Positions 6,406 through 50,209 of a DNA stretch of 50,647 nt are shown one piece after another. The DNA comes from Candidatus Paceibacter sp. (lineage in GTDB: Bacteria; Patescibacteriota; Minisyncoccia; UBA9983). The DNA is taken from NCBI GenBank assembly GCA_013360865.1, contig JABWAS010000001.1:1-50647 (forward strand), given 5' to 3'. The notes below the pieces were generated by a model that was not told the origin of the DNA, did no database searches, and was given only the letters and a program-made list of their open reading frames with translations. The position numbers and the translations under genes were made by a program. The first letter of the stretch is position 1; each line of letters starts with the position of its first letter.

Positions 6406-7092
6406 ATGAGCAGAAAAATAAATTTTTCACCGGGAGAAAACTACCATATTTATAATCGTGGTAATGACAAAAGGGTAATTTTTCAAAACAAAGCAGATTA
6501 TGACAGATTTACTGCTTTGTTATACATATGCAATGGAACGAAAGATATAAAATTAAGCGATTATCCGAACATCAAAATGGAAAAACTGCTAGAAATAAAA
6601 AGGGGAGAAACTCTCGTTGATATAGGAGCATATTGTTTAATGCCTAATCATTTTCATTTGCTTATACATGAAAAAACCGAGGGCGGTATAAGTAAGTTTA
6701 TGCAAAAATTGCTCACTGCTTATACGATGTATTTTAATAAGAAAAACGAAAGAACAGGGGTATTATTTGGCGGATTATTTAAAGCAACCCATGTCAACGA
6801 AGACCGTTATTTAAAATATCTCCTCTCGTACATTCATTTAAACCCAATTAAGCTCATTGAGCCAGCATGGAAAGAAACAGGTATCAAAAACAAAAAAGGG
6901 GCTGATCTTTTTCTTAAATCTTACATTTATTCCAGTTTTCTGGATTTCACTGTGGAAAAAAGGAAAGAGCTTGTTATTCTTAATAAGAACCAGTTTCCTG
7001 AATACTTTGAAAATTTTAAAGAGTTCGAAGTTTTTATTGAAAATTGGCTTATGTTTTCCAACGACAACCCCACTGTCAAGGCGAGACCTTGA
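6406..7092 (+). CDS. IS200-like / REP-associated tyrosine transposase (RayT-like, Y1 HUH family)
   Basis: HUH motif in CLMPNHFHLLIHE. C-terminal Tyr motif YLLSYIHLNPIK, typical of the YxxxNP helix in RayT/transposase_17 proteins. 228 aa with an ATG start. Confidence 0.8.
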   Translation: MSRKINFSPGENYHIYNRGNDKRVIFQNKADYDRFTALLYICNGTKDIKLSDYPNIKMEKLLEIKRGETLVDIGAYCLMPNHFHLLIHEKTEGGISKFMQKLLTAYTMYFNKKNERTGVLFGGLFKATHVNEDRYLKYLLSYIHLNPIKLIEPAWKETGIKNKKGADLFLKSYIYSSFLDFTVEKRKELVILNKNQFPEYFENFKEFEVFIENWLMFSNDNPTVKARP

Positions 7093-7097
7093 CAGTG
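7071..7097. repeat. REP-like hairpin, copy 2 (inverted; 11-bp stem); likely also a bidirectional terminator
   Basis: CACTGTCAAGG-CGAGA-CCTTGACAGTG. It overlaps the convergent stop codons of the transposase-like gene (7090-7092) and rsmA (7076-7078). Confidence 0.85.
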
Positions 7098-7936
7098 TTT
7101 AAACACTTCCAGTCTTCCAGGTCTAAATCTTCGGCTCTCGCTTTTTCAGCTATGCCGCAGGCGGCAAAATTTTCTTTTTTCGCGCCTAGGTTGCTCAAAA
7201 GCAACTTCCTTTTGTGGGCGAAGCCTTTTCTGACCGTTTCAAAAAAATTTTTCTCATCCAAATCTTTAAAAAATTCTTTGGAAATGCCGGAGATTCTGAT
7301 AACCGCCGAATCCACTTTTGGCTGGGGAATGAAATTGCCCTTGGAAACTATCCTTATTATCTCCGGCCGGCCGTAAGTTTTAACGCTTATGGAAAGAAGG
7401 CTCTCTTTGACGGGAAAAGAAACTTGCCTTCTGGAAAAATTTCCTCCTTCGTCAGTTTTGTAAAAAGACGAGTTTCTTTTCCCGCACTTTTTTCCCAAAC
7501 CAATAATCCTATCCGCCACCTCTTTTTGGATCATCAAGACCATCAAAACTGGCTGAGGTTCCTCGCTCAAAAATTTTCGCAAAAAAAATGAGGTAATATA
7601 ATAAGGCAGGTTGGCAATAATTTTATAACCGCCAATGTCAAGGTTGAACCTTGACATTGGGTCAAATGCCAAAATATCGCCTGAAATAACATCCAGCCTC
7701 CCGTTGTTAATTTCAGCGGAAAATTTTTCTTTTAAAAATTCTACAAGCTCCTCGTCTTTCTCTACCGCTATCACTTTTTTAGCCCTTTGCAGAAGCAACT
7801 CCGTCAAAACACCCTTTCCTGGGCCGACTTCCAGAACAGTATCATCGGGGCTAACTTTCCCCGCCGCGACTATTTCTTCGGCGATTTTTTGGGAATTGAG
7901 AAAATTCTGCCCAAGTGATTTTTTAGCTTTCAGCAT
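7076..7936 (-). CDS. rsmA: 16S rRNA (adenine1518/1519-N6) dimethyltransferase RsmA/KsgA
   Basis: SLGQNFL motif, SAM-binding VLEVGPGKGVLT, and NLPYYITS motif. 286 aa. Confidence 0.9.
   Translation of the reverse strand: MLKAKKSLGQNFLNSQKIAEEIVAAGKVSPDDTVLEVGPGKGVLTELLLQRAKKVIAVEKDEELVEFLKEKFSAEINNGRLDVISGDILAFDPMSRFNLDIGGYKIIANLPYYITSFFLRKFLSEEPQPVLMVLMIQKEVADRIIGLGKKCGKRNSSFYKTDEGGNFSRRQVSFPVKESLLSISVKTYGRPEIIRIVSKGNFIPQPKVDSAVIRISGISKEFFKDLDEKNFFETVRKGFAHKRKLLLSNLGAKKENFAACGIAEKARAEDLDLEDWKCLNTVKVSP
7632..7660. repeat. REP-like hairpin, copy 3, inside the rsmA coding sequence
   Basis: CCAATGTCAAGG-TTGAA-CCTTGACATTGG (12-bp stem). Same TGTCAAGG/CCTTGACA arms as copies 1 and 2. It is translated in-frame as part of ...PMSRFNLDIGG... 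Confidence 0.8.
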
Positions 7937-10018: not shown

Positions 10019-10039
10019 TTTAAAAATAAGAAAAATAAG

Positions 10040-10754: not shown

Positions 10755-11762
10755 ATGGCCCTACTTTTAGGAGCTGTTTTCTTTTTAGGGCAGGTTAACC
10801 TCGCGGAGGCCGGCTTTTTCTACTTTGGCTCCAGTGCCGAAGCCTCCAAACTCGGGCTTGCCTCAAAAAAAGAAACGGCCAACCTGCAAACGATGCCTCT
10901 TCTGGAAAGTTCTTTAAGCTACGAGGTCAGCAACCATAAAGGGGGCGGAGAAATTGCCATAGTCAACAACAACTCGCTTCTTCCGGAGTCCGGCCCGCTT
11001 GGCACCATGGCCGACGTGGAAGAATTAAACAGCGACTGGCAGATCAATGTTTATGTGGTGCGCGAGGGTGACACCTTATCACAGATAGCCCAGATGTTCG
11101 GAGTTTCCGTCAATACCATAATCTGGTCAAACGACATCTCCCGCGGCAGCTCCATCAAGCCGGGGCAAACGCTGGTCATTCTCCCAATCACCGGAGTAAA
11201 GTACGAAGTCAAAAAAGGAGATACGCTTAAGAGTATCGCCAAGAAACTCAACAGCGACGTGGACGAAATAATAAAATTCAACGGCCTGGACGCCGACGGG
11301 CAACTGGCAGTCGGGGAAACGATAATCGTTCCCAACGGCGAGATGCCGGCGCCGTCCGCCCCCAAAACAACCAGACCGGGGTCTAATCCCTATCGCGGCG
11401 GCAGCGGCCCTTCTTACGCCGGTTATTACATGAAACCGATTGCCGGCGGAGTAAAATCTCAAGGCTTGCACGGATACAACGGCGTTGACCTGGCCAACTC
11501 CTGCGGCACTCCGGTTTTAGCCTCCGCTTCCGGCGACGTTATCATCAGCAAAGCGGCCGGCTGGAACGGCGGTTACGGCAATTATATTGTCGTATCTCAC
11601 TCCAACGGCACCCAGACTTTATACTCACATCTTTCCACTAATATTGTTTATCCAGGCTGGCGCGTCAGCCAGGGTCAGGTCATCGGCTACGTCGGCTCCA
11701 CCGGCAAATCCACCGGCTGCCATCTGCACTTTGAAGTCAGAGGCGCGAAAAACCCCTTCTAG
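10755..11762 (+). CDS. secreted LysM-domain M23 metallopeptidase
   Basis: Signal peptide, two LysM-like repeats (YVVREGDTLSQIA; YEVKKGDTLKSIA), and M23 motifs GVDLA...GNYIVVSH...GCHLHFEV. Confidence 0.9.
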   Translation: MALLLGAVFFLGQVNLAEAGFFYFGSSAEASKLGLASKKETANLQTMPLLESSLSYEVSNHKGGGEIAIVNNNSLLPESGPLGTMADVEELNSDWQINVYVVREGDTLSQIAQMFGVSVNTIIWSNDISRGSSIKPGQTLVILPITGVKYEVKKGDTLKSIAKKLNSDVDEIIKFNGLDADGQLAVGETIIVPNGEMPAPSAPKTTRPGSNPYRGGSGPSYAGYYMKPIAGGVKSQGLHGYNGVDLANSCGTPVLASASGDVIISKAAGWNGGYGNYIVVSHSNGTQTLYSHLSTNIVYPGWRVSQGQVIGYVGSTGKSTGCHLHFEVRGAKNPF

Positions 11763-12324: not shown

Positions 12325-12582
12325 CTACTCATAAATATCATGATTGCCGATTGAATAAAATCTAACTGTGTTTTTGTTTAAAAATTCAAAAATTATTCTA
12401 TAATCATAATTTATGGAAAAAGACCAAAATCCAATAAGTTCACCGTGGAGTTTATGTGTTTTTAGTTTCGGATCAAACGGATCTTTTCTGAAAACTTTTT
12501 CTTTCCTTTCCGCCAAATCTTGAACATCCGCCGGTAATTTCTTGTATTCCCTGCTGAACCTCGGCAGATATATAATTTTCAT
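12325..12582 (-). CDS. RelE/ParE-family type II toxin
   Basis: 85 aa. Fold signature ...KLHGELIGFWSFSINYDYRIIFEF...VRFYSIGNHDIY. The upstream RHH gene ends 6 nt before this gene starts. Confidence 0.75.
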   Translation of the reverse strand: MKIIYLPRFSREYKKLPADVQDLAERKEKVFRKDPFDPKLKTHKLHGELIGFWSFSINYDYRIIFEFLNKNTVRFYSIGNHDIYE

Positions 12583-12588
12583 AAAAAA

Positions 12589-12804
12589 TTATCTCAGGTC
12601 GTGCAACGATCTTAATACCTTTCCTTTCCCCGCCTCAAATTCTTTTTTGGCTTCTTTTAATTCTTTGGCTAATTTGTGTGTGTTCCACGCTCGTATCGCA
12701 TGCCTTATAAACTCGCTCTTGGTGGCGAATTTGCCGGATTTAACTTCTTTTTCCACTAAATCCGCCATGCTTTTAGGCAACGAAATATTTATTACGCTTC
12801 TCAT
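12589..12804 (-). CDS. ribbon-helix-helix (CopG/ParD-like) antitoxin
   Basis: 71 aa. N-terminal INISLPKSMADLVEKEV...KSEFIRHAIR is an RHH pattern. Paired with the RelE-like gene. Confidence 0.7.
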   Translation of the reverse strand: MRSVINISLPKSMADLVEKEVKSGKFATKSEFIRHAIRAWNTHKLAKELKEAKKEFEAGKGKVLRSLHDLR

Positions 12805-12894
12805 ATATTTATAGTTATAGTAACAAATTGTAATACAAAATGTTACACCTTAATAATAATTCATGTCCAATGAAAGTCAACAAGCTGTAAAACG

Positions 12895-14433
12895 TTACTT
12901 CGGCCGGTATTGAATAGCCTCCAAGATATGATTCTCACCGATATTTTCGGCTCCTTCCAGGTCGGCGATGGTGCGGGATATTTTGATGACGCGATGATAG
13001 GCGCGGGCGGAAAGGTCAAGTTTGGCGGCGGCGTTGTTTAGAATCGTCTTTGTTTTGTCTGAAAGCGAGGCGAACTTCTTAAGCTCTTTAACCCCCATCT
13101 CGCTGTTGGTTAAAATTTTTATCTCTTTCTTGCCGCTTTCTCTGAATCTTTCTTTCTGGATTTCTCTGGCCGCGACGACCCTTTTTTTGACGGCGCCGGA
13201 AGATTCCGAGGAAATGTTGTCATTGGAAAGTTTTTGATGATCCACCCGCGGCACCTCCACCCACAAATCAACTCTGTCCATAATCGGCCCGGATATTTTG
13301 CGCTGGTATCGGGCTAGCGCGCTTTGGGTGCATACGCAAGGCTTGGATTTGGAATCAAGGTTGCCGCAAGGGCACGGGTTCATGGCGCAGACCAAAATAA
13401 ATCTGGCCGGGAAGGAAACCGTCCCTTTGGCCCGGGAAACGTGAACTATCCCTTCTTCCAGCGGCTGACGCAAAGCTTCTATCACCCGCCGTTCAAACTC
13501 CGGAAATTCGTCCAAAAACAGCACTCCCCGGTGGCTTAAAGTAATTTCTCCCGGCTTGGGATAAACCCCTCCGCCGACCAAAGCGACGTAAGATGAAGTA
13601 TGGTGCGGCCCGCGAAACGGCCTTCGCAAAACAAAATCGCCGTCTAGAACTCCGGCCACGCTGTGGATCGCGGTCGTTTCCAAAATTTCTTCAAAAGACA
13701 AGGGCGGTAAAACGCAGGCAAAGGCTTTGGCCAGCATGGTTTTGCCCGTGCCGGCCGGCCCGATCATGGCGATGTTGTGGCCTCCGGCGGCGGCAATTTC
13801 CAACCCTCTTTTGGCCGTTTCCTGCCCTTTGATGTCGGCAAAATCAACCAAACTTTCAAAACCATCGTCGCCTGACTCGATTTTTGTCGCCGGCTTGGCC
13901 TTTAACTCAATTTTGTTTTCTTCGTCAAAATGGCGGATTATATCTTCCAACTTTTCGCAGCCGAAAATTTTTACACCCTCTATTAGCGCCGCTTCTTTGG
14001 CGTTTTCTTCCGGAACAAACACCTCTTTAAAACCTTTGCTTTTGGCGCGTTTTACCAAAGCCAAAACACCTTTGACTTTTCTTATGGCGCCGTCCAGCGC
14101 CAGCTCGCCCAGAAACATCTTCCCTTCCGGATCAAAATTTATCTGCTTGGAGGCCAGAAGATAAGCCAGAGCGATGCCCAAATCAAAAACCGGCCCCTCT
14201 TTTTTAAGGTCGGCCGGCGCCAGAGAAACCGTCACCCTTTGGTTTTTCTTCTGTGGAGAAACGAAGCCGGAATTTTTGACGGCCGCGGAGATCCTGTCTT
14301 TGGATTCCTCCACCGCCTTGTCGGGCAAGCCGACGATGGAAAAAGAATGCAGGCCTTGCGCCAAGTCTATTTCTATGTCCACGATATCGGCTTTTAATCC
14401 CGTCGTCTGAGCGGAGTAAACTTTGACTGACAT
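12895..14433 (-). CDS. comM: Mg-chelatase-like AAA+ ATPase YifB/ComM
   Basis: N-terminal Lon-protease-like domain, Walker A GPAGTGKT, and C-terminal ChlI-type domain. 512 aa. Confidence 0.9.
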   Translation of the reverse strand: MSVKVYSAQTTGLKADIVDIEIDLAQGLHSFSIVGLPDKAVEESKDRISAAVKNSGFVSPQKKNQRVTVSLAPADLKKEGPVFDLGIALAYLLASKQINFDPEGKMFLGELALDGAIRKVKGVLALVKRAKSKGFKEVFVPEENAKEAALIEGVKIFGCEKLEDIIRHFDEENKIELKAKPATKIESGDDGFESLVDFADIKGQETAKRGLEIAAAGGHNIAMIGPAGTGKTMLAKAFACVLPPLSFEEILETTAIHSVAGVLDGDFVLRRPFRGPHHTSSYVALVGGGVYPKPGEITLSHRGVLFLDEFPEFERRVIEALRQPLEEGIVHVSRAKGTVSFPARFILVCAMNPCPCGNLDSKSKPCVCTQSALARYQRKISGPIMDRVDLWVEVPRVDHQKLSNDNISSESSGAVKKRVVAAREIQKERFRESGKKEIKILTNSEMGVKELKKFASLSDKTKTILNNAAAKLDLSARAYHRVIKISRTIADLEGAENIGENHILEAIQYRPK

Positions 14434-15059: not shown

Positions 15060-15977
15060 TCACCAAGTAGCTCCGTTGTTTATGTGTTGCGGGGAAGAAA
15101 AGCGCCGGAATACTTCCGCCAAAGCGTCTTCACTTTCCGTTATCACCAGATATTTGCGGTCAATGAAAGAATAAACAAGCAATGTGTTGCCATCATCGTC
15201 TGTCAAAACCCGGGCGTCGTGGTTTTTAACATATTTGTCCGAGAAACGCCCGGAAGAATATAAAGCCGCCCCGCTGAAGAAAAAGCCGAGGTCTTTGGCT
15301 AGACTGTTTTCCCACTTCAGCATTTGGGAAAAAACATAATTATATGATTTGGCTTTAAAAACAAGGGCGGGTCGGCTTCCGTCCGCCTCTATTCTTAAAA
15401 CCATAAAATCGTCTTCCAGGTAATCGGAGAGTTCTTTTGGGAAAGATACATCCGCGAATCCGGCAAATTCCCTCCTGCCCATTCTGGCTTCATTGCTGCC
15501 GGAAACCTTCATAATGACGGCCGCGGCCGCGTCGCCTTCATTGCCGCCCTCTTCAAAAAATTGGCGAAGCTCTCTCTGGAAAACCTCCTTTTTGCCCTCT
15601 TCGGCCAAAATTTCCGTTTCGTCGTCCAAAATAATCGGGTCAACGACTGATCTGGCCCCCGCCTTACGGCCAGACTGGTTTTTCTCCGAAGAAATTTTGG
15701 TAAAGGCAAAATAGCCGCCGCCGGCCAAAACCAAAACCACCAGAAAAGAAACTAGTATTTTTTTAACCGGCAGGGAACTTTTGGTTTGTTCTTCAAAACT
15801 GACGCCCTTGGATTTAGCTTCCTCCGCCACGATATCCAACAGAGAAACGTTTTTCCCTTTGACGTATTCGGCGATGTCGCTTTCCAGCGTCCGGATAGCC
15901 CGCGGGGAGGAACTTTTGGCAACTCCGCCGCCGGTATTAGTATTTTTCGCCGCCGTTTGTGTTTCTTTGTCCTCCAT
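15060..15977 (-). CDS. hypothetical single-pass membrane protein
   Basis: 305-aa ORF with one TM helix (ILVSFLVVLVLAGGGYFAF). No recognised domain. Confidence 0.6.
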   Translation of the reverse strand: MEDKETQTAAKNTNTGGGVAKSSSPRAIRTLESDIAEYVKGKNVSLLDIVAEEAKSKGVSFEEQTKSSLPVKKILVSFLVVLVLAGGGYFAFTKISSEKNQSGRKAGARSVVDPIILDDETEILAEEGKKEVFQRELRQFFEEGGNEGDAAAAVIMKVSGSNEARMGRREFAGFADVSFPKELSDYLEDDFMVLRIEADGSRPALVFKAKSYNYVFSQMLKWENSLAKDLGFFFSGAALYSSGRFSDKYVKNHDARVLTDDDGNTLLVYSFIDRKYLVITESEDALAEVFRRFSSPQHINNGATW

Positions 15978-16111
15978 CCCGGTCAGTACAAATTATGATT
16001 GCCCATGTTTTTGGTTAAATGACAACCCAACAATTAAACAACCAAATTACTTTTTAATTTTAATGACTTTTATTATGTCCGGCAAAAACCATCATAATTT
16101 GTCCTACCGGG
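15978..16111. repeat. ~134-bp MITE-like / structured element with imperfect terminal inverted repeats, copy 1
   Basis: CCCGGTCAGTACAAATTATGAT ... ATCATAATTTGTCCTACCGGG. About 80 percent identical (by eye) to 48901-49032. The left end abuts the ATG of the 15060..15977 gene. The right end contains the pnp stop codon (16104-16106). Confidence 0.8.
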
Positions 16112-25739: not shown

Positions 25740-27248
25740 ATGCGGGAAAAAATAAAAACTATCCCCAAAATCGTCGTTGATATTGCCGAGAAACTCAATA
25801 AGGCCGGATTTGAGGCTTATTTTGTCGGCGGCTGCGTCCGCGATCTGGTGTTACATACGAAACCGAAGGACTGGGACATTACCACCAATGCCAAACCGGA
25901 AGATATCCAAAAGCTGTTCCCCCGTTCTGTTTACGAAAATAAATACGGAACTGTCGGGGTTATCAACGACACGGATGATGAAACTCTAAAAGTCGTTGAG
26001 GTTACGCCTTATCGGCTGGAATCCGGTTATTCGGACAAAAGGCGGCCAGACGAAGTGCGTTTCACGTCAAACGTTAAAGAAGATCTTAAAAGGCGCGATT
26101 TTACCATCAACGCCTTGGCCCTTGCCCTGCCTCATCGGCAGGCAGGCCTGCCCCGCGAAGGCGAAAAAGACTTGGAATTACTCGATTTATTCGGCGGCCA
26201 AGAAGATTTAAAGAAGAAAATTATCAGAACGGTGGGCAATCCGGACGACCGATTTAATGAAGATGCTTTACGGATTTTAAGGGCAATAAGATTGGCCGCA
26301 GAACTTGATTTTGACGTTTCACGTGAAACAAAAGAAGCTATCAAAAAACATGCCAGCCACTTGCAAGAAATCGCCCAAGAAAGAATCCATGATGAGTTTG
26401 TAAAAATAGTAATGAGCAACAAGGCTAAATTTGGCATAGAGCTTACGCGCGAGCTTGGCGTTCTTAAATATGTTTTGCCGGAGCTGGAAGAGGGAATTGG
26501 CATTGAGCAAAATAAAGCTCATAAATTCACCGTCTGGGAGCATAATTTAATGGCGCTTGATCACGCCGCTTCAAAAGGCTGGCCGCTGGAAATAAGGCTG
26601 GCGGCGCTGCTGCACGATGTGGCCAAACCGGCGACAAGACGCTGGAATGAGCAGAAAGGGGACTGGACTTTCTACGGCCACGATGTCATCGGCGCCAAAA
26701 TGGCGGCCAAAATTTTGGCCCGGCTTAAATTTTCCAAAAAAGACATAGAGCTCATCAGCAAACTGGTGCGTTACCATCTATTCTTTTCCGACACAGAAGT
26801 GATAACTTTATCAGCAGTGCGAAGAATGGTCCGCAATGTCAGTCCGGAGCATGTCTGGGACTTGATGAAGGTACGCTTCGCCGACAGGGTAGGAATGGGG
26901 AGGCCGAAGGAAACGCCATATCGCCTTAGGAAGTACGAAGCCATGATAGAAGAGGCTATGAGAGCCCCACTGTCTGTCACCAGCCTTAAAATTGACGGCA
27001 GCCGCCTTATGGAACTTCTTAAAATCCAACCCGGACCGAAAGTGGGTCAGATTTTGAATATCATGTTTGAGGAAGTTTTGGATGAACCGGAGAAAAACAC
27101 CAAAGAATACCTGGAGAAAAGAGCTGTTGAGTTAAACAACCTGCCAGAAAAAGAGCTGGAGGCGTTGGCCAAACAAGCCAAAGACAAAAAAGAATCCATT
27201 GAACAAGCCGAAATCAAAGAAATCCGCCAAAAATGGTGGGTGAAGTAA
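25740..27248 (+). CDS. cca: CCA-adding tRNA nucleotidyltransferase with HD domain
   Basis: GGCVRD...DWDI head domain, RDFTINA motif, and HD motif LLHDVAKP. 502 aa. Consistent with the tRNA genes lacking an encoded CCA. Confidence 0.9.
   Translation: MREKIKTIPKIVVDIAEKLNKAGFEAYFVGGCVRDLVLHTKPKDWDITTNAKPEDIQKLFPRSVYENKYGTVGVINDTDDETLKVVEVTPYRLESGYSDKRRPDEVRFTSNVKEDLKRRDFTINALALALPHRQAGLPREGEKDLELLDLFGGQEDLKKKIIRTVGNPDDRFNEDALRILRAIRLAAELDFDVSRETKEAIKKHASHLQEIAQERIHDEFVKIVMSNKAKFGIELTRELGVLKYVLPELEEGIGIEQNKAHKFTVWEHNLMALDHAASKGWPLEIRLAALLHDVAKPATRRWNEQKGDWTFYGHDVIGAKMAAKILARLKFSKKDIELISKLVRYHLFFSDTEVITLSAVRRMVRNVSPEHVWDLMKVRFADRVGMGRPKETPYRLRKYEAMIEEAMRAPLSVTSLKIDGSRLMELLKIQPGPKVGQILNIMFEEVLDEPEKNTKEYLEKRAVELNNLPEKELEALAKQAKDKKESIEQAEIKEIRQKWWVK
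27169..27248 (+). repeat. 80-bp direct repeat, copy 1 (functional 3' end of cca)
   Basis: CCAAACAAGCCAAAGACAAAAAAGAATCCATTGAACAAGCCGAAATCAAAGAAATCCGCCAAAAATGGTGGGTGAAGTAA. About 5 mismatches versus 28610-28689. Confidence 0.9.
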
Positions 27249-27342: not shown

Positions 27343-28602
27343 ATGTTTATAAAACGGAATATTTTTGAGGCCTTAAAAAACCATCTTGATAAAAAAGAGA
27401 TGACTCTTATTGTTGGACCGAGGCAAGCGGGCAAGACAACTTTAATGATGGAGCTTAAGGAATATCTTGAAAAAACAGGGAACAAAACCGTTTTTTTGAG
27501 TCTTGATTTTGAAAACGACCGAAAATTTTTTACTACCCAAAACTCTTTGACAGAGAGGTTGAAACTGGAGTTTGGCAACAATAAGGGCTATGTTTTCCTT
27601 GATGAAATACAAAGAAAAGAAGACGCCGGATTGTTTTTAAAGGGAATCTACGATATGAATTTGCCGCATAAATTCATTATTTCAGGATCGGGGAGCGTCG
27701 AGCTTAAGGAAAAAGTTCACGAATCCTTAGCGGGAAGAAAAATGATGTTTGAGGTTTTGCCGATAAGTTTCAGTGAGCTTGCGAATTTTAGGACAGATTA
27801 CAAATACGAAAACAGACTTTTGGATTTTTTAAATATTGAAAAGGATACAGCGATGAGTCTTTTGCTTGAGTATTTGAACTTTGGCGGCTATCCTCGGGTG
27901 ATTACGGCAAATTCCTTTGAAGAAAAAATGATGGTTATTTCTGAACTTTATGGAAGTTATATGGAAAAAGACATCGCATACTTGCTGAGAGTGGAGAAAT
28001 TGGACGCCTTTTCCTCTCTAGTAAAAATTATTGCCGGTCAGACTGGCAGAATAATCAACTATTCAGAACTATCAAACACAATCGGATTATCCATGGCGAC
28101 AATTAAAAACTATTTATGGTATTTGGAAAAAACCTTTATAACCGGCACGGTTTCGCCATTTTTTAAAAACAAAAGAAAAGAGATTACAAAAGCTCCTGTC
28201 GTCTATTTCCACGATCTTGGTTTTAGAAATTATTCAGTCGGACTTTTTGGAAAGACGGCCCAGACGGACGGTTCAGGTTTCGCTTTTCAAAATTTTGTTT
28301 TCAACGCGTTGAAAACCAGCTTGCAATTTTCCGGCGCCGAAATAAGACACTGGAGAACAAAAGAAAAAGCGGAAGTTGATTTTGTGATAACTTCAGGAGA
28401 TAGAGTAACTCCGGTAGAAGTTAAATATTCAGAACTTAAGAAACCGGAAGTCGGCCGTTCGTTAAAAAGTTTTATTGATAAATACAAACCCCAAAAAGCC
28501 TTCGTAGTAAATAAAAGTTTTAAAGAAACGTTTGTCATTGACAAGACCGAAGTAAACTTTATTCCTTTTTGGGAATTGGCAGGCAGGGGGATTTTGGATT
28601 AA
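27343..28602 (+). CDS. AAA+ ATPase (ATPase-AAA_14 / DUF4143-type)
   Basis: Walker A GPRQAGKTTL, Walker B VFLDEIQ, and a C-terminal DUF4143-like region. 419 aa. Confidence 0.85.
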   Translation: MFIKRNIFEALKNHLDKKEMTLIVGPRQAGKTTLMMELKEYLEKTGNKTVFLSLDFENDRKFFTTQNSLTERLKLEFGNNKGYVFLDEIQRKEDAGLFLKGIYDMNLPHKFIISGSGSVELKEKVHESLAGRKMMFEVLPISFSELANFRTDYKYENRLLDFLNIEKDTAMSLLLEYLNFGGYPRVITANSFEEKMMVISELYGSYMEKDIAYLLRVEKLDAFSSLVKIIAGQTGRIINYSELSNTIGLSMATIKNYLWYLEKTFITGTVSPFFKNKRKEITKAPVVYFHDLGFRNYSVGLFGKTAQTDGSGFAFQNFVFNALKTSLQFSGAEIRHWRTKEKAEVDFVITSGDRVTPVEVKYSELKKPEVGRSLKSFIDKYKPQKAFVVNKSFKETFVIDKTEVNFIPFWELAGRGILD

Positions 28603-28609
28603 ATCATTA

Positions 28610-28689
28610 CCAAACAAGCCAAAAACAAAAAAGAATCCATCGAGCAGGCCGAAATCAAAGAAATCCGCCAAAAATGGTGGGTGAAGTAG
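28610..28689 (+). repeat. 80-bp direct repeat, copy 2 (orphaned duplicate of the cca 3' end)
   Basis: Still reads ...AKNKKESIEQAEIKEIRQKWWVK-stop in one frame, but has no upstream ORF. Confidence 0.9.
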
Positions 28690-29437: not shown

Positions 29438-30505
29438 TTATTTTCTCCCTTTATTATGAAACGATTTATGCACGTCCCGTAGTTGTTTGTCGGTGATGTG
29501 GGTGTAGATTTGGGTGGTGGAGATGTTGGAGTGGCCGAGCATGGTTTGGACGGCGCGAATGTCGGCGCCGTTGGAGAGTAGGTCGGTGGCGAAGCAGTGG
29601 CGGATGACGTGCGGCGTGACTTTTTTGGAAATTCCAGCTTCTGTGGCGCGTTGTTTGATCATGCGCTCCACGGAGCGGGGAGTAAGGCGAGAAACATTGC
29701 CGGAACTGGGAAATTGGTTTCCTTGAGAACGGTCATAACGGGGAATTCTCCGGAAACCAACTTTCCCAGTTCCGGCTGATACAAACAATGCTTCTTCCGT
29801 GTCTGTTCTCTTGTCCAAATAATTTTTAAGCGCTTGCTTGGCTGTTTCTGATATGAAAACTACTCTTATCTTGCCACCCTTGCCGCGGATGGAAATTTCG
29901 CCGTTTTTAGCTTCGCTGAAAGAGTCGCGGTTTAAAGCGCAAAGCTCGGAAACGCGCAAGCCGGTGGAGAAAAGGAGTTCCAAAATGGCTTTGTCGCGCA
30001 AATTTCTTGGGTTGTTGCCATTGCTTTTTTGGCTGGCGGAGGAAAAAGATGCCTCCGGAGAATTCCCCGTTATGACCGTTCTCAAGGAGGCGCTTTTTCC
30101 TCCGCCAGCCACCATGAGCGGCGCGTCAAGAAGTCTTTGCAACTCCTCTGCCGTTATCAAATCCAAATCCCTTTGCGGCGTTTTGGCCAGCTCAATCCTT
30201 TCCGGCGGCAGGGAGGCAATGTTTCTCTTGGCCAGATATTTAAGAAAAACCCTCAAGGCGATTAAGTAATAATTCTGCGTTTTTTTATTTAAATTACCGC
30301 CGCTGTTTTTCTCTTCGCGGTTAAGGAAAAGGCGGTACTTCCTGACAGTTTCGTCGTCTATTTGGGAAGGGGAGGAAACTTTGGCAAAGCCCAAAAACTT
30401 ACTCAAATACCGGTCGTAATTTTCTACCGTTTTTAGGCTGCGGCCTTTTTCCACCTCTAAATATTCAAGAAACTCCCGGTGAAGCTCTTTGAGGTTGTGC
30501 GGCAT
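29438..30505 (-). CDS. tyrosine recombinase XerC/XerD-like, carrying two in-frame palindromic insertions
   Basis: N-terminal SAM-like domain. Catalytic residues RVSE..., HVIRHCFAT and GHSNISTTQIYTH are present. 355 aa, roughly 55 aa longer than typical owing to two inserts. Confidence 0.85.
   Translation of the reverse strand: MPHNLKELHREFLEYLEVEKGRSLKTVENYDRYLSKFLGFAKVSSPSQIDDETVRKYRLFLNREEKNSGGNLNKKTQNYYLIALRVFLKYLAKRNIASLPPERIELAKTPQRDLDLITAEELQRLLDAPLMVAGGGKSASLRTVITGNSPEASFSSASQKSNGNNPRNLRDKAILELLFSTGLRVSELCALNRDSFSEAKNGEISIRGKGGKIRVVFISETAKQALKNYLDKRTDTEEALFVSAGTGKVGFRRIPRYDRSQGNQFPSSGNVSRLTPRSVERMIKQRATEAGISKKVTPHVIRHCFATDLLSNGADIRAVQTMLGHSNISTTQIYTHITDKQLRDVHKSFHNKGRK
29699..29776 (+). 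repeat. palindromic element A inside xerC (78 bp)
   Basis: GCCGGAACTGGGAAATTGGTT-[CCTTGAGAACGGTCATAACGGGGAATTCTCCGGA]-AACCAACTTTCCCAGTTCCGGC. The flanks pair with each other. The 34-nt core is at 29721-29754. Confidence 0.85.
30031..30110 (-). repeat. palindromic element B inside xerC (80 bp, opposite orientation)
   Basis: GGCTGGCGGAGGAAAAAG ... CTTTTTCCTCCGCCAGCC form perfect 18-bp arms. The identical 34-nt core lies at 30054-30087 in reverse complement. Confidence 0.85.
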
Positions 30506-32850: not shown

Positions 32851-32897
32851 AAAACATCAAGGCGTCGCCTTTCTCCAAGGCGACGCCTTGATGTTTT
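32851..32897. repeat. 21-bp-stem hairpin, gpmI-flanking copy 1
   Basis: AAAACATCAAGGCGTCGCCTT-TCTCC-AAGGCGACGCCTTGATGTTTT. It lies between the divergent rny and gpmI starts, so it is not positioned as a terminator. Confidence 0.85.
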
Positions 32898-32913
32898 AAT
32901 GTTAAAATTAGAT

Positions 32914-34509: not shown

Positions 34510-34528
34510 ATTTAAAAAATGCGGCTTA

Positions 34529-34571
34529 AACATCAAGGTGTCGCCTTGCTGCAAGGCGACACCTTGATGTT
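34529..34571. repeat. hairpin, gpmI-flanking copy 2 (also positioned as a bidirectional terminator)
   Basis: AACATCAAGGTGTCGCCTT-GCTGC-AAGGCGACACCTTGATGTT. Versus copy 1, the C..G pair is replaced by T..A, which is compensatory. Confidence 0.85.
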
Positions 34572-34575
34572 CTAT

Positions 34576-35201: not shown

Positions 35202-35248
35202 AAAACCGACCTGCCAGGTTGGCAATCTAAACCTGGCAGGTCGGTTTT
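35202..35248 (-). terminator. terminator hairpin after tig (conserved-loop family, copy 1)
   Basis: AAAACCGACCTGCCAGGTT-GGCAATCTAA-AACCTGGCAGGTCGGTTTT. A T-run follows on the minus strand. Confidence 0.75.
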
Positions 35249-41073: not shown

Positions 41074-41120
41074 AAAACTGACCTACCAAGTTGGCAATCT
41101 AAACCTGATAGGTCAGTTTT
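41074..41120. terminator. bidirectional terminator hairpin (conserved-loop family, copy 2)
   Basis: AAAACTGACCTACCAAGTT-GGCAATCTAA-AACCTGATAGGTCAGTTTT. The 10-nt loop is identical to that at 35202-35248. Confidence 0.7.
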
Positions 41121-47231: not shown

Positions 47232-48900
47232 AAACATCTACAACTCTCTGCAATTCATCCAGCGATGTCACTCCCTTTAAAACCTTCAGCACGCCGTCTT
47301 GCTTCATGTCCGGCAAGCCCTGCTTTCTTGATTCTTTAAGTATTTCCGTTTCGCCCGGGCTGGTCAGAATAAGCGGCTCCAGCTCCTCGTTTATCAAAAT
47401 GGCTTCAAAAACGCCTATTCTTCCCTTATATCCTATGTTGTTGCAGGCCGGGCAGCCTTTGGCCCGCCAGAGAAAAACTTCGCCCGTTTCCGGTTTGGGA
47501 TAATTTTCCGGCAGGGAAGCGATGGTTTTTCTGACAATTTCCGACTCTTCGGCATTGGCCGGAGTTTTTTCTTTGCACTTGTCGCACAGCTTTCTCACCA
47601 GTCTTTGAGCCATCGTCAAGTTGACGGCCGGCGCGATGGCCGACGGCGTTACTCCCAAGTCCACCAGGCGGGGGATCGTGCCGGCGGCATTGTTGGTGTG
47701 GAGCGTGGAGAGCACCAAGTGGCCGGTCAGCGCCGCGTTCATGGCCGTTCTGGCCGTGTCCAGGTCTCTTATTTCGCCCACCATTATAACATCTGGATCC
47801 TGCCGGAGGATGGAGCGGAGTCCGTTGGAGAAAGTGTAGCCGCTCGCTTCCTCCACCTGCGTTTGCACCACTCCTTCCACGTGGTATTCCACCGGATCCT
47901 CCAAAGTGATTATTTTCGTGCCCGGCGTGTAGATTTTTTTGAGGAAAGCGTAGAGGGTGGTGCTTTTGCCGGAGCCGGTCGGACCGGTGGTTAGAATCAT
48001 TCCGTTGGGCTTTTTTAATTCCTTTTCCACTATACTCAACAACAGCGGCTCCATGCCCAAACCTTCCATGCGGATGTCTATTGATTCCGGATTGAGCACT
48101 CTCAACACTATAGATTCGCCGTAAGATTCTGGGATGACCGACGATCTTACTTCTATTTCTTTTTTGGCCAATCTGATGCTGAAGCGCCCGTCCTGCGCCT
48201 GATTGTGGATGTTGAGCTTCAGGCCGGAAACCAGCTTAATTCTGGAAAGGAGGAGGTTGTAAACTTTGTAATCAAAGGAAAGGATGTCGTGGAGCACGCC
48301 GTCCAGCCTCATCCGAAGCCTCACTTGGCCGTCCTGCGGTTCAATGTGGATGTCGGAAGCGTCGGCGGCGATGGCTCCCGCCAGAATTATTTCCAGAACT
48401 TCGGAAATTTTACGGTTTTTCTGGGTGGCGGCGGAGGCGACGAAGATATTTTTCAAATCTTCAAGAGTGGAGGTTTGCTTTAAAAATTCTTCCAGTTTCT
48501 CGGAGGAAATGTCTATGACGCCCCTTGCTATTTCTTCGTATTGCGGCACCTCGGCGTACCTCTTCCAGGCGTTTTTGAGGCTTTCTTCGGAAACCATGAA
48601 CAGGTTTATTTTGTACCCCTTGTTTTCAAGGTCTTTGACGGTTCTTTTTGTTTTTTCCGGATTCGGGCTTTCTATGGCCGTCTGGAGCTTCTGGCCGACT
48701 TTCTGGAAAACGGCCATTTTCGCCTCGCGGGCTTCCGCCTCCGGCAGTATCTTTAAAGCGTCTATGTCTATGGTTATTCCGGAAAGGTCTAAGTATGGCA
48801 GGCCGTATCTTTGGGAAAGGATTTTAGCCAGGTCTTCGGCTTCCTTTTTTCTCATCTCCTCTATTTGCTCTTGTTTTTTGTCGTCCTCAAAGATTGGCAT
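47230..48900 (-). CDS. pilB: type IV pilus / type II secretion assembly ATPase (PilB/GspE family)
   Basis: N-terminal GSPII_E_N-like domain, Walker A GPTGSGKSTT, Asp/His boxes, and Zn-binding CDKC...CPAC. 556 aa. Confidence 0.9.
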   Translation of the reverse strand: MPIFEDDKKQEQIEEMRKKEAEDLAKILSQRYGLPYLDLSGITIDIDALKILPEAEAREAKMAVFQKVGQKLQTAIESPNPEKTKRTVKDLENKGYKINLFMVSEESLKNAWKRYAEVPQYEEIARGVIDISSEKLEEFLKQTSTLEDLKNIFVASAATQKNRKISEVLEIILAGAIAADASDIHIEPQDGQVRLRMRLDGVLHDILSFDYKVYNLLLSRIKLVSGLKLNIHNQAQDGRFSIRLAKKEIEVRSSVIPESYGESIVLRVLNPESIDIRMEGLGMEPLLLSIVEKELKKPNGMILTTGPTGSGKSTTLYAFLKKIYTPGTKIITLEDPVEYHVEGVVQTQVEEASGYTFSNGLRSILRQDPDVIMVGEIRDLDTARTAMNAALTGHLVLSTLHTNNAAGTIPRLVDLGVTPSAIAPAVNLTMAQRLVRKLCDKCKEKTPANAEESEIVRKTIASLPENYPKPETGEVFLWRAKGCPACNNIGYKGRIGVFEAILINEELEPLILTSPGETEILKESRKQGLPDMKQDGVLKVLKGVTSLDELQRVVDV

Positions 48901-49032
48901 CCCGGTTAGTACAAATTATGATTGCCTATGTTTTTTAGTTCAACAAACCTCCAACAATTAAACAATCAATTTATTTTTAATACTGCGACTTTTGTCATGC
49001 CCGGCAAAACCATCATAATTTGTCCTACCGGG
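48901..49032. repeat. ~132-bp MITE-like / structured element, copy 2
   Basis: CCCGGTTAGTACAAATTATGAT ... ATCATAATTTGTCCTACCGGG. The left end abuts the pilB ATG. Similarity to copy 1 continues about 10 nt past the right inverted repeat. Confidence 0.8.
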
Positions 49033-49063
49033 CATTGTTGTTATTACTATATATTCTATCCTT

Positions 49064-50209
49064 TTATGGGACCTCTTTCAACGCGTTTTTTATCTTCAGC
49101 TCCGCTTCGGAAAAATTTTTATACGGCCCGCACAGCAGATACGCTCCTTTGTCTTCGCAATTCAGCGCCAGCCGGATTTTTTCGGCCGCGCCGGAGCGCT
49201 CCCGCGGGGAACTGCTTCGGATAAGGCATTTTACGGAATCGTTTTTCTGCCAGAGCACCGCCGCCAAAGACACATTCGGGTAAAAGTCAAAAATCTGGCC
49301 GCCGATACCGGCGAAAACGGCTTCGCCGGCGCCGATAAGCCCCGTTTTTTGCAGGTCTTGCTCGGAAAGAAAAGTCCAAACCAAGCCGCGGCCGCCGTCG
49401 GAAGCTGTTCTGGCCAAAGCGCGGCCGAACAGTTTTGCTTCGTTGTCGCTTTTTTCCAAAAAAACTTTGCTTATTTTATCTTGCTCGGCGCCGGATTTGA
49501 GCAGCGCGGCCAAGATGCCGGCCGTTTTCTCGCCAAGCGACTTTTTTAAAAATCTGGTTTCCGTCAGCAAAGAAGCCAGAAGCAGGGAAGCGGAATTTTT
49601 ATCAGCCCGGAGCGCCTGCCTGCCGGCAGGCAGGCTCCCTGATTTTCCGGCAGCCAGCAATATGTCGTAAACTTTTCCGGCCAGGGTGTCCGTCTCCGCC
49701 GCCGGCGCGATTATTATCGTCTTTTCTTCCGGCGGAAAAATTATTTTTTTGGCCGCCTCCGCCGCCAAAGATTCTTCAATCTTGTTTTCCGCGCGCGGAG
49801 AAAAATAAATGACCGCGTCCACGTTTGCCGGCATGGTTTTAAAAACGACGTTTTCCCCAACAACCTCTTCTTTGGTTGAGCTTATGTTTATTTTTACGTA
49901 TTGCTCGTCCTCGGAGTAGGATATTTCTTTGATGTCCACCTTGTCTTTCGGGATTAAAATCGAGGACGAGTGGATTAAGGAAGATTTATTGTCCGGCGGC
50001 AGAATGTCCGCCCATTTTTGGCGGAACGCGGTGTCTTTTTCCGGCAGTTGAATCACGGAGTATTGGTGGCCGCCGTCGTTTTTCAGCAAGCGGGCGAACG
50101 CTTCCGCCGCCAGAAGAGTTTCTTCCGGAGAATTCTTACCGCAGATAATGGCAAAAGAGCGGCTTTCCGAAAATATTTTCCTTATTTTCTCCTCCTGCTC
50201 CGGCGTCAT
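49064..50209 (-). CDS. hypothetical protein, possibly a degenerate DHH/NrnA-like fold
   Basis: 381-aa ORF. The N-terminal layout (IRKIFSESRSFAIICGKNSPEETLLAAEAF) resembles the start of NrnA but lacks the H/DxD catalytic residues. Weak inference. Confidence 0.5.
   Translation of the reverse strand: MTPEQEEKIRKIFSESRSFAIICGKNSPEETLLAAEAFARLLKNDGGHQYSVIQLPEKDTAFRQKWADILPPDNKSSLIHSSSILIPKDKVDIKEISYSEDEQYVKINISSTKEEVVGENVVFKTMPANVDAVIYFSPRAENKIEESLAAEAAKKIIFPPEEKTIIIAPAAETDTLAGKVYDILLAAGKSGSLPAGRQALRADKNSASLLLASLLTETRFLKKSLGEKTAGILAALLKSGAEQDKISKVFLEKSDNEAKLFGRALARTASDGGRGLVWTFLSEQDLQKTGLIGAGEAVFAGIGGQIFDFYPNVSLAAVLWQKNDSVKCLIRSSSPRERSGAAEKIRLALNCEDKGAYLLCGPYKNFSEAELKIKNALKEVP

What the first reader, a model, noticed from the sequence alone, without database searches (positions are those of the whole stretch)
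29699..30110. Two copies of a palindromic ~80-bp element inserted in-frame, in opposite orientations, inside the xerC-like recombinase gene
A 34-nt core (CCTTGAGAACGGTCATAACGGGGAATTCTCCGGA) occurs at 29721-29754 and as a perfect reverse complement at 30054-30087. Each core is embedded in flanks that pair with each other, but the flank sequences differ between copies. Copy A has GCCGGAACTGGGAAA.TGGTT/AACCA..TTTCCCAGTTCCGGC, and copy B has GGCTGGCGGAGGAAAAAG/CTTTTTCCTCCGCCAGCC. The result is a conserved centre with non-homologous but self-complementary stems. Both copies are translated without stops: ...GGGKSASLRTVITGNSPEASFSSASQ... and ...GTGKVGFRRIPRYDRSQGNQFPSSGNVS... They fall where XerC/D proteins have variable loops, after the LLDAP region and between the LF...G and RLTPR segments. 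All catalytic motifs remain intact. This resembles the Rickettsia palindromic elements that colonise ORFs, but here it occurs in a site-specific recombinase, with the unusual feature of copy-specific stems. It could be a new class of coding-tolerant mobile hairpin, a DNA or RNA structure regulating the recombinase, or a recombination substrate.
Basis: partly seen in the sequence, partly recalled or inferred. Interest (0 to 1): 0.78.

Follow-up and report, generated by a model that had tools for sequence, protein, structure and literature searches.

The report
In-frame palindromic repeats in Paceibacteria genes
The two hairpins in this recombinase gene are copies of a small palindromic repeat that sits in frame in several housekeeping genes of these ultra-small (CPR) bacteria, much like the "selfish DNA in genes" known from Rickettsia, and it does not appear to have been described in this phylum.

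Summary
A perfect 35-nt inverted repeat (29720-29754 / 30054-30088) forms the tip of two ~78-nt hairpins inside a Xer-like recombinase gene, and both are in frame.

The hairpins are not specific to xer. They belong to a repeat family (core CCTTRAGRACGGWCA-N5-GGRAAT..CTMCGG) found in Paceibacteria/Parcubacteria. Copies sit in frame in xer, gatB (twice) and a nifS/iscS-like gene, in non-coding DNA, and as a decayed third copy in the window's own rsmA/ksgA gene (7410-7485).

Xer orthologues range from 289 to 423 aa, with empty, single, tandem, nested and partly deleted inserts from at least three hairpin families at the same two loops. The "copy-specific" stems are homologous among orthologues at each site and change by paired substitutions (22 of 31 pairs).

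The exact identity of the two cores is best explained by recent conversion within the gene; closely related genomes still carry the older site-1 core. The inserts align to gaps in solved structures and are predicted to be disordered loops.

Best reading: selfish repeats like Rickettsia palindromic elements (RPEs), translated and tolerated in surface loops. How they move is unknown. A xer-specific regulator, an inversion switch and translational bypassing are all disfavoured.

The parts
29438..30505 (-). Host gene: Xer-like tyrosine recombinase, 355 aa. It is chromosomal and syntenic (dnaA ... RNase Y - HU - xer) in related genomes.
   Evidence: ORF. Pfam. Solved XerC/XerD/XerA homologues. Synteny. 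Catalytic residues conserved.
30032..30109 (-). Copy B (site 1): family-1 hairpin element, core in the sense orientation, read as ..GGGKSASLRTVITGNSPEASFSSAS..
   Evidence: Covariance model R1 scores 93.9 bits. Fold -54 to -58 kcal/mol, z -8.4 to -9.9. Absent from the empty allele L003.
30054..30088 (-). 35-nt apical core of copy B. It is of the site-2 type (G at core position 5, C at position 30).
   Evidence: Core comparison.
29990..30127 (-). Site-1 variable loop region (aa 127-172). It is 138 nt here and 39 nt in empty alleles. Against the closest relative L001 it is a local mosaic patch.
   Evidence: Identity to L001 is 60.6% in the patch and 96.7% outside it.
29699..29776 (+). Copy A (site 2a): family-1 hairpin element, core antisense to the gene, read as ..GTGKVGFRRIPRYDRSQGNQFPSSG..
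   Evidence: R1 scores 92.1 bits. Fold -48 to -50 kcal/mol, z -8.6 to -9.0. Identical in L001 and L002.
29720..29754 (+). 35-nt apical core of copy A.
29688..29780 (-). 93-nt block at site 2 that is missing from the empty 289-aa allele. It comprises the hairpin plus a 15-nt tail. Coordinates are approximate.
   Evidence: DNA alignment A2 with L003. Site lengths 99 nt against 6 nt.
7410..7485 (-). Third, decayed family-1 copy, in frame in rsmA/ksgA (peptide ..KKCGKRNSSFYKTDEGGNFSRRQVSFPV..).
   Evidence: R1 scores 31.1 bits on the minus strand and 13.9 on the plus strand. It is 59% identical to the L037 xer copy across stems and loop. It is a ~30-aa insertion relative to solved KsgA.
7076..7936 (-). 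Second host gene in the window: 16S rRNA dimethyladenosine transferase (RsmA/KsgA), 286 aa.

Best explanation
The two hairpins are copies of a ~78-nt palindromic repeat element. It is small, non-autonomous selfish DNA of the same kind as Rickettsia palindromic elements and intragenic REP or MITE-like repeats, and it has spread within Paceibacteria/Parcubacteria.

The unit that moves is the whole hairpin: two ~22-30-nt arms around a conserved ~34-nt tip. A copy inside a gene persists only if three conditions hold. Its length must be a multiple of three, it must be stop-free in the reading frame it lands in, and it must fall in a surface loop. It is then transcribed and translated as a 26-33-residue disordered loop, and the enzyme keeps working.

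In xer, two tolerant loops were colonised before several lineages diverged. They have since collected tandem, nested and partly deleted elements from at least three hairpin families.

The arms drift quickly but stay complementary, through arm-to-arm correction (template switching) and/or selection for the hairpin. This gives each site its own stems. The cores of copies lying in the same gene are occasionally homogenised by gene conversion. In this window that replaced the old site-1 core with the site-2 core and produced the perfect 35-nt inverted repeat.

Shown here: the repeat family and its dispersal, insertion status, frame preservation, stem covariation, and the within-gene core homogenisation pattern.

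Inferred: translation of the inserts, near-neutrality, conversion as the homogenising process, and mobility. The mobilising enzyme is unknown.
For: Dispersal. A degenerate core pattern found Parcubacteria copies in xer, in gatB (two copies), in a nifS/iscS-like cysteine desulfurase and in AT-rich non-coding DNA at three distinct loci. Hits in unrelated taxa lacked the hairpin. A covariance model found a third, decayed copy in the window's rsmA/ksgA.

Whole-hairpin unit. The non-coding copies and the two gatB copies share stems as well as core. In L028 only the hairpin is shared with the other non-coding loci.

Insertion status. Empty 289-aa xer alleles lack both arms. Alignments to solved Xer, IscS, GatB and KsgA structures show gaps exactly at the elements. 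The AlphaFold model shows inserts 132-162 and 246-269 as coil with pLDDT 35-42, between flanks at 70-94.

Translation. Every coding copy is in frame and stop-free. Six independent sense-oriented insertion sites use the same frame (..LRT...GN.T..). All antisense site-2a copies carry G at core position 5, where A would create a TAA stop in the frame used.

Hairpin maintenance. 86% of cells are paired, against 66.5% in shuffles and 33-61% in slid controls. 22 of 31 pairs change on both sides.

DNA-type symmetry. In coding copies there are 4 G-U pairs on the mRNA strand, 10 on the antisense strand and 13 other mismatches.

Core homogenisation. The window's site 1 and site 2a differ at 0 positions, against 4-14 differences from orthologous site-1 cores. 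L038's site 1 and site 2b differ at 2 positions, against 7-8.

Dispensability. Orthologues show remnants and partial deletions (P0069, P0072, P0012), and some have empty sites.

Precedents. RPEs are described in PMC10969869, intragenic REPs in PMC3733652, and arm conversion in coding palindromes in PMC6649704.
Against: No transposase, target-site duplication or fresh insertion/excision polymorphism was found, so mobility rests only on the dispersed distribution. Copy number is low, a handful per genome, far below the 44 RPE insertions reported for R. conorii in the review read. Xer holds a disproportionate share of the known copies, which a purely random insertion model does not predict. Long-term retention with paired stem changes could also reflect a host function. 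Translation was not observed directly. The census is limited to one strict DNA pattern and about 373 kb of held sequence, because the protein-level census failed.
Confidence: 0.75

Rival explanations
1. The hairpins are cis-regulatory structures, as RNA or DNA, selected to control xer itself. Examples would be RNase III cleavage sites, translation pause sites or autoregulatory binding sites for the recombinase.
For: The stems are very stable and are maintained by paired substitutions across orthologues. The two sites in xer have stayed occupied over long divergence.
Against: The same element occurs in unrelated genes and in non-coding DNA, and in both orientations. Different hairpin families occupy the same sites. 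Many orthologues are empty or carry partly deleted remnants. There is no excess of G-U pairs on the mRNA strand. There are no terminator-like features.
Confidence: 0.07
2. The two inverted 35-nt cores act as recombination sites that invert the 299-bp segment between them, giving an intragenic on/off switch for the recombinase.
For: A perfect 35-nt inverted repeat 299 nt apart lies inside a recombinase gene. The site-1 region is a mosaic patch relative to the closest relative, so it is recombinationally active.
Against: Inversion would produce a stop at codon 159 and no alternative ORF. The same orientation is seen in the window, L001 and L002. In other lineages the two cores differ (L006), are in direct orientation (L038), or only one is present, so the perfect inverted repeat is peculiar to this lineage.
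Confidence: 0.05
3. The inserted peptides have been recruited as functional protein segments of Xer, for example an extra DNA-binding loop at a position reminiscent of the additional domain of integron integrases.
For: The inserts are retained in frame over long periods. Insert 2 lies between the beta-hairpin region and the helix that precedes the HxxR motif, a region that from memory carries the IntI-specific domain. That point was not tested here.
Against: The peptide depends on element orientation and family, and differs completely among orthologues at the same site. The inserts are predicted to be disordered. They are absent or truncated in many orthologues. The same peptide appears in GatB, IscS and KsgA.
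Confidence: 0.05
4. The elements are skipped rather than translated, either by translational bypassing (as with T4 gene 60 and the mitochondrial byp elements) or by RNA-level excision.
For: Hairpins in coding sequence are a hallmark of bypass elements, as mentioned in PMC6649704.
Against: All coding copies have lengths that are multiples of three and are stop-free. The antisense copies have fixed the one substitution needed to avoid a TAA stop. Remnants of deleted elements remain in frame.
Confidence: 0.03

Closest known systems
Rickettsia palindromic elements (RPE; Ogata et al. 2000 and 2002, as summarised in PMC10969869 and PMC3733652)
   Same: Small palindromic repeats dispersed in a reduced genome. 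Many are inserted in frame in unrelated housekeeping genes, encode a conserved peptide, sit at positions compatible with the protein fold, have no transposase of their own, and decay over time.
   Different: The phylum differs (Patescibacteria/Paceibacteria). This element is about 78 nt, against roughly 100-150 bp for RPEs. Copy number is much lower. Here the conserved part is the hairpin tip while the arms diverge with paired changes. Two loops of one gene hold tandem and nested copies of several families. Sequence relatedness to RPEs was not tested.
Intragenic REP elements and RAYT-mobilised REP/BIME (Di Nocera et al. 2013, PMC3733652)
   Same: Stem-loop repeats that are occasionally located entirely inside ORFs. 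That paper notes they often lie in replication and repair genes. They are presumed to be mobilised in trans.
   Different: REPs are 20-40 nt, carry a GTAG or CGTC tag, are very abundant and are mostly extragenic. This element is twice as long, has no GTAG tag, and only some copies are preceded by CGTC. No RAYT gene was examined.
Coding palindromes of Nematomorpha mitochondria (PMC6649704)
   Same: Long, near-perfect inverted repeats inside translated genes. The arms appear to be kept identical by conversion or template switching rather than by a demonstrated function.
   Different: In Nematomorpha both arms encode conserved native protein sequence and the palindromes are not a dispersed repeat family with a common core. 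Here the whole hairpin is an insertion and belongs to a repeat family.
Bacterial MITEs that give in-frame fusions (ERIC, Correia/NEMIS, QMITE1; PMC10969869, PMC5896051)
   Same: Non-autonomous, hairpin-forming repeats that can lie within ORFs.
   Different: MITEs have defined terminal inverted repeats related to a parent IS, and target-site duplications. No duplication and no parent IS were found here.
Folded-hairpin recombination sites of tyrosine recombinases (integron attC; CTX-phi attP for XerCD)
   Same: Imperfect palindromes whose structure rather than sequence is conserved in the stems. The host gene here encodes a tyrosine recombinase.
   Different: There are no R/L boxes (GTTRRRY) and no cassette context, and the elements lie inside ORFs of unrelated genes. 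There is no evidence that Xer acts on them.

Membership tests
RPE-like protein-coding palindromic repeats (functional kind) | Repeated palindromic sequence that folds into a stable hairpin | tested here: met
   z -8.4 to -9.9. 14 distinct copies show 86% paired cells and 22 of 31 covarying pairs.
RPE-like protein-coding palindromic repeats (functional kind) | Copies dispersed in unrelated genes and in intergenic DNA | tested here: met
   xer, gatB (two copies), nifS/iscS-like, rsmA/ksgA, and three non-coding loci.
RPE-like protein-coding palindromic repeats (functional kind) | Insertion preserves the reading frame of the host ORF | tested here: met
   All coding copies are in frame and stop-free. 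The antisense copies have fixed G at core position 5, which avoids a TAA stop.
RPE-like protein-coding palindromic repeats (functional kind) | Insertion at positions compatible with the fold (surface loops) | tested here: met
   Gaps in alignments to solved Xer, IscS, GatB and KsgA. Inserts are coil with pLDDT 35-42 in a model of mean pLDDT 70.
Rickettsia RPE families proper | Sequence similarity to an RPE consensus, and occurrence in Rickettsiales | not tested
   No RPE consensus was available in the tools. The host phylum is Patescibacteria and the size differs, so it is not filed as an RPE family member.
MITE | Target-site duplication flanking the element | tested here: inconclusive
   Flanks of 17 copies show no consistent direct repeat. 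A possible GCTCGCT repeat is seen only at the L036/L038 site-1 copy.
MITE | Terminal inverted repeats shared with an autonomous IS in the same genomes | not tested
   No complete genome or IS survey was possible with the scans available.
REP/BIME (RAYT-associated) | 20-40 nt palindrome tagged by GTAG or CGTC, high copy number, extragenic | tested here: not met
   The element is 78 nt. There is no GTAG tag. CGTC precedes only the non-coding and L038 site-2b copies. Only 3 copies occur in the 50.6-kb window.
Integron attC-type folded site | R''/L''-L'/R' boxes with a GTTRRRY core site, in a cassette context next to intI | tested here: not met
   The sequences show no GTTRRRY at the 3' end. The copies lie inside ORFs of housekeeping genes.
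Intragenic invertible segment (inverton) | Both orientations give an open reading frame, or both orientations are present in reads | tested here: not met
   In-silico inversion of 29720-30088 gives a stop at codon 159. Read-level evidence is not testable here.
Translational bypass (byp / gene 60-like) element | The element interrupts the frame or carries an in-frame stop at the take-off site | tested here: not met
   There are no in-frame stops and lengths are multiples of three.
Known RNA families (Rfam 15) | A match reaching a family's gathering score | tested here: not met
   Only miRNA-precursor-like hairpin matches at 17-28 bits, against gathering scores of 63-80.
Xer-type tyrosine recombinase (host gene) | Catalytic R-K-H-R-H-Y residues and the two-domain architecture | tested here: met
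   Pfam domains. Solved XerC/XerD/XerA as best homologues. R184, K209, H299, R302 and H325 invariant, and Y334 nearly invariant.

The most novel reading that the evidence does not exclude
The conserved hairpin tip is a recognition site for an enzyme that acts on folded DNA, possibly the Xer recombinase itself, in the way IntI acts on attC and XerCD act on the folded CTX-phi site. Preferential action near its own gene would then explain why xer has collected so many tandem and nested hairpins. Alternatively, these bacteria may have an active palindrome-maintaining conversion system that keeps coding hairpins perfect. Either would be a new mobility or maintenance mechanism rather than passive selfish DNA.
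Probability: 0.07. Interest if true: 0.85.

Novelty: new member of a known kind. Interest (0 to 1): 0.55.

Why it matters
In-frame "protein-coding palindromes" have been treated as a peculiarity of Rickettsia. A 2002 paper title calls them "a unique but recurrent feature in Rickettsia". Finding at least one well-defined family, and signs of several more, in Paceibacteria shows the phenomenon recurs in a second, unrelated lineage with a small genome. The shared conditions may be little intergenic space and weak selection.

There are also practical consequences. These inserts inflate and diversify the lengths of housekeeping proteins in CPR metagenome bins. They can confuse orthology and domain calls, since Xer here ranges from 289 to 423 aa. 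They also provide fine-scale strain markers.

The orthologous series of empty, filled, nested and decayed sites is a natural data set for studying two questions: how hairpin arms co-evolve inside translated sequence, and how new loops are added to proteins.

Tried and rejected
(1) A viral-contig scan with a 22-nt piece of the core gave no hits.

(2) Rfam at gathering threshold and at permissive E-value gave only sub-threshold hairpin look-alikes among miRNA precursors.

(3) A census of host proteins using a profile of the encoded peptide failed. The concatenated 50-column profile gave 18 candidates, none with E <= 10. This is a dead end for short peptides in a database of that size.

(4) The first AlphaFold run, on a 25-sequence alignment, was too poor to use (mean pLDDT 55). 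It was repeated with 116 sequences.

(5) I considered that the arms might be inverted duplications of the target sequence, from fold-back repair or P-nucleotide-like events. This was rejected. Empty alleles and distant homologues contain neither arm, and paralogous copies share arms (gatB1/gatB2 and non-coding loci).

(6) I considered that only the 34-nt core is mobile and targets the tips of existing hairpins. This is less parsimonious, for the same reason. It is not fully excluded, because a 20-nt mini-palindrome does nest inside cores.

(7) I looked for target-site duplications in the flanks of 17 copies and found none that was consistent.

(8) I looked for terminator-like features at the hairpins and found none.

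(9) Sliding-window folding of the window and six related loci found no other in-gene hairpin of comparable strength in the window. The decayed ksgA copy was only found with the covariance model.
Full report
**1. The observation**

The 34-nt core CCTTGAGAACGGTCATAACGGGGAATTCTCCGGA occurs exactly twice in the window, at 29721-29754 on the plus strand and at 30054-30087 as its reverse complement. No match appeared in 100 shuffles. The repeat finder extends this to a perfect 35-nt inverted repeat with 299 nt between the arms.

Each core is the tip of a hairpin of about 78-80 nt (29699-29776 and 30031-30110). As single strands these fold at -48 to -58 kcal/mol, with z-scores of -8.4 to -9.9.

The ORF is a tyrosine recombinase. 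Alignments to solved XerC, XerD and XerA structures break at residues ~132-164 and ~244-271, which are the two hairpin segments.

**2. Both segments are insertions, at two hotspots shared by a whole clade**

The protein database holds thousands of relatives. The 120 best are 58-92% identical, come from Paceibacteria/Parcubacteria/Patescibacteria, and range from 287 to 423 aa. The gene is the chromosomal xer: related contigs share the order dnaA ... RNase Y - HU - xer.

Alignment shows "empty" 289-aa forms (..RLLDVKGGETKDIRDK....EEALFFLTPRS..). It also shows forms with one, two or more inserted blocks at the same two positions. More distant orthologues have short loops there (DAPKGNDLRPLRD; VSKGESRL or just two residues), so the long versions are derived.

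At the DNA level the empty allele L003 lacks both arms of both hairpins. The whole hairpin is therefore the insertion, and neither arm is native gene sequence.

At least three hairpin families use these two loops:
- Family 1, the one in the window, gives peptides ..SLRT...GN.TE.. in the sense orientation and ..FRRI.R.DRSQGN.. in the antisense orientation.
- A second family gives ..SAKQNFSRFTLPRSGAGSDASQNF.. / ..RRREKSKFSAENYASR..
- A third gives ..VKPP.RGGLTA..

There are tandem arrangements (L006 site 2 holds two family-1 copies in opposite orientation). There are nested ones (a 20-21-nt mini-palindrome, CCTGCCTGCCGGCAGGCAGG, inside the core in L001 and L005). There are also partly deleted remnants in P0069, P0072 and P0012.

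**3. The element is not specific to xer**

I scanned one genome per species (596 Gb) with the degenerate core CCTTRAGRACGGWCANNNNNGGRAAT and obtained nine loci. Six were Parcubacteria and carried the full hairpin. Three were in unrelated taxa, lacked a hairpin, and match the chance expectation.

In genome GW2011_GWA2_40_143 the element lies in frame in three genes:
- xer;
- a nifS/iscS-like cysteine desulfurase (..GAGGKFASLRTDKTGNSTEVKLSSSS..);
- gatB, twice (..GGEDFVPLRTDITGNSTGTKILPA.., ..SGGDFVPLRTDEEGNPTETKIT..).

In an AT-rich genome (CG10_38_31 and relatives) it lies in non-coding DNA at three distinct loci. The metagenome scan returned the same lineages and hosts. Alignments to solved IscS and GatB structures show a gap exactly at the element.

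I built a covariance model from 14 distinct copies. It recovered all known copies at 47-94 bits in 290 kb of held sequence. It also found one further strand-asymmetric hit in the window itself, at 7410-7485 on the minus strand (31 bits, against 14 on the other strand).

That hit lies in frame in rsmA/ksgA (ORF 7076-7936). It is 59% identical to the L037 xer copy across both stems and loop; the loop ACTGACGAAGGAGGAAAT differs at one base (my reading of alignment A7). It encodes ..SFYKTDEGGNFS..VSFPV.., and it is a ~30-residue insertion relative to solved KsgA. The window therefore holds three copies in two housekeeping genes.

**4. What the mobile unit is, and why the stems look copy-specific**

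The non-coding copies share stems as well as core, and in L028 only the hairpin itself is shared with the other loci. The two gatB copies also share their stems. The unit is therefore the entire hairpin.

Within xer, site-1 stems are recognisably homologous among orthologues, and so are site-2 stems, but they differ by paired changes. Two examples are ACTGGGAAAGTTGG/CCAATTTCCCAGT in the window against TTCGGGAAAGCTGG/CCAGCTTTCCGAA in L006, and CTGG/CCAG against CCGG/CCGG at site 1. Copies in different genes still share a GGAGGAAAG-like inner-stem motif.

Over 14 distinct copies, 86% of cells form standard pairs. Shuffles give 66.5%, and structures slid by 1-3 columns give 33-61%. Of 31 pairs, 22 change on both sides. 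Most core columns never vary. The stems are therefore old, fast-evolving and kept complementary. They are not unrelated sequences.

Mismatches show no excess of G-U on the mRNA strand (4, against 10 on the antisense strand and 13 others). This fits a DNA-level palindrome, maintained by arm-to-arm correction or template switching as discussed for other coding palindromes in PMC6649704. It fits less well with selection on an mRNA structure. It does not exclude selection for a DNA hairpin.

**5. Why the two cores in this window are identical**

All antisense site-2a copies carry CCTTGAG...CTCCGGA. All other site-1 copies carry CCTTAAG...CTACGG, including the one in the closest relative L001, whose xer is 96.7% identical outside the site-1 patch.

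The G is needed in the antisense copies, because with A the frame in use would read TAA. Its partner change (CGT to CGG, both arginine) is silent and creates a G-C pair.

In the window, site 1 carries the site-2a-type core at every diagnostic position: 0 differences from site 2a, against 4-14 from orthologous site-1 cores. Its stems remain of the site-1 type seen in L005, L006 and L037. L038 shows the same pattern independently: site 1 and site 2b differ at 2 positions, against 7-8 from orthologous site-1 cores.

The simplest explanation is gene conversion between copies lying in the same gene, limited to the only stretch they share. The perfect 35-nt inverted repeat is thus a recent, lineage-specific by-product.

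Site 1 is also a ~150-nt mosaic patch relative to L001 (60.6% identity, against 96.7% outside and 100% over the 3' half). The region is therefore recombinationally active.

**6. Are the inserts translated, and where do they sit?**

Every coding copy has a length that is a multiple of three and is stop-free. Six independent sense-oriented insertion sites use the same frame: xer site 1, xer site 2b, nifS, gatB (two) and ksgA. The antisense copies have fixed the stop-avoiding substitution. Deleted remnants remain in frame. This argues against translational bypassing or RNA excision.

A structure model built on 116 orthologues (mean pLDDT 70) shows residues 132-162 and 246-269 as coil with pLDDT 35-42, between well-predicted elements at 70-94. 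The second insert emerges between two short strands. The catalytic residues are conserved.

In-silico inversion between the cores gives a stop at codon 159, so there is no alternative coding state. The hairpins have no terminator-like tails and match no Rfam family.

**7. Comparison with what is known**

The closest known kind is the Rickettsia palindromic element. RPEs are small palindromic repeats inserted in frame in unrelated genes at positions compatible with the fold (PMC10969869; PMC3733652). Intragenic REPs, noted to lie often in replication and repair genes, are a second precedent. The conversion-maintained coding palindromes of hairworm mitochondria are a third.

The present family meets the functional criteria of the RPE kind: hairpin, dispersal, frame preservation and loop location. 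It is in a different phylum and is shorter and rarer. Its conservation is concentrated in the hairpin tip. It shows pile-up and nesting at two loops of one gene.

It does not meet REP, attC, inverton or bypass criteria. MITE criteria (target duplication, parent IS) could not be established.

Eight full-text searches found no description of such elements in CPR/Patescibacteria. That library is incomplete, so this is absence of evidence only.

**8. Verdict**

This is a coding-tolerant palindromic repeat family, here in a candidate-phyla-radiation bacterium.

The supposedly unusual features have ordinary explanations. The perfect core identity comes from conversion within the gene. The copy-specific stems come from covarying divergence of old copies. 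The location in a recombinase reflects one host among several, with two tolerant loops.

The mechanism of spread remains unknown, and the over-representation in xer is not fully explained. This leaves a small probability for a hairpin-specific enzyme, possibly Xer itself.

I rate it a new member of a known kind, of moderate interest.

Noticed in passing
window 49615-49634 (in ORF 49064-50209, minus strand); window 23298-23317; L001 10417-10437; L005 10037-10056; upstream of the HU gene in L003 9585-9604, L008 9601-9620, L036 909-928, L038 295-314: A 20-nt perfect mini-palindrome, CCTGCCTGCCGGCAGGCAGG, is itself a dispersed repeat. It sits in frame in a 381-aa window ORF (peptide ..SLPAGRQA..). 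It is nested inside family-1 cores in relatives (peptide LPAGKAG), and it recurs in intergenic DNA. It may target hairpin tips.
   Followed up: partly
L007 10401-10490; L008 xer site 2 (within 10001-10999); L036 2069-2109; L037 822-862; proteins P0008, P0022-P0024, P0033: At least two further hairpin families occupy the same two xer loops in orthologues. One gives peptides SAKQNFSRFTLPRSGAGSDASQNF / RRREKSKFSAENYASR, the other VKPP.RGGLTA. Their distribution outside xer was not surveyed.
   Followed up: partly
L008 12821-12910 (UDG gene 12406-13149); L007 and L037 UDG; window 23180-23229; L003 19091-19180; L008 17101-17190: A GC-rich palindrome family (CCCGCCCGC...GCGGGCGGG) coincides with a 12-16-aa in-frame insert in uracil-DNA glycosylase of L007, L008 and L037. 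The insert is absent in L003 and L006. The same family occurs intergenically next to a tRNA gene in the window. This suggests that several palindrome families colonise ORFs in this lineage.
   Followed up: partly
window 15975-16121 and 48898-49042: Two copies (95-97% identical at the ends) of a ~147-bp element with ~22-bp terminal inverted repeats (CCCGGTCAGTACAAATTATGAT ... ATCATAATTTGTCCTACCGGG). It looks like a classical MITE.
   Followed up: no
window 27169-27247 and 28610-28688, flanking ORF 27343-28602: A 79-nt direct repeat (95% identical) brackets the AAA_14/DUF4143 ATPase gene next to xer. The repeat ends in ..KWWVK-stop, as if insertion of the ATPase gene had duplicated the 3' end of the neighbouring ORF. 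This ATPase gene is the variable neighbour of xer in all related loci.
   Followed up: no
window 32852-32898 / 34528-34574, and 35202-35248 / 41074-41120; also L001 5221-5310, 5901-5990, 7561-7650: Two families of perfect ~45-nt intergenic hairpins (AAACATCAAGGCGTCGCC..., AAAACCGACCTGCCAGGTT...) are repeated within the window and conserved in the relative. They are terminator-like palindromic repeats.
   Followed up: no
window 29990-30127 versus L001 10379-10528: The site-1 region of xer is only 60.6% identical between the window and its closest relative, while the rest of the gene is 96.7% identical (100% over the 3' half). This is a sharply bounded mosaic patch, implying allele exchange or replacement of the element.
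   Followed up: partly
5' flanks of the non-coding copies (L013, L016, L024, L028) and of L038 site 2b, gatB2 and L037 site 1: Several copies are preceded by ATCG(T/G), with CGTC in the non-coding copies. This is reminiscent of the CGTC tag of one REP superfamily and could be a cleavage or target motif.
   Followed up: no
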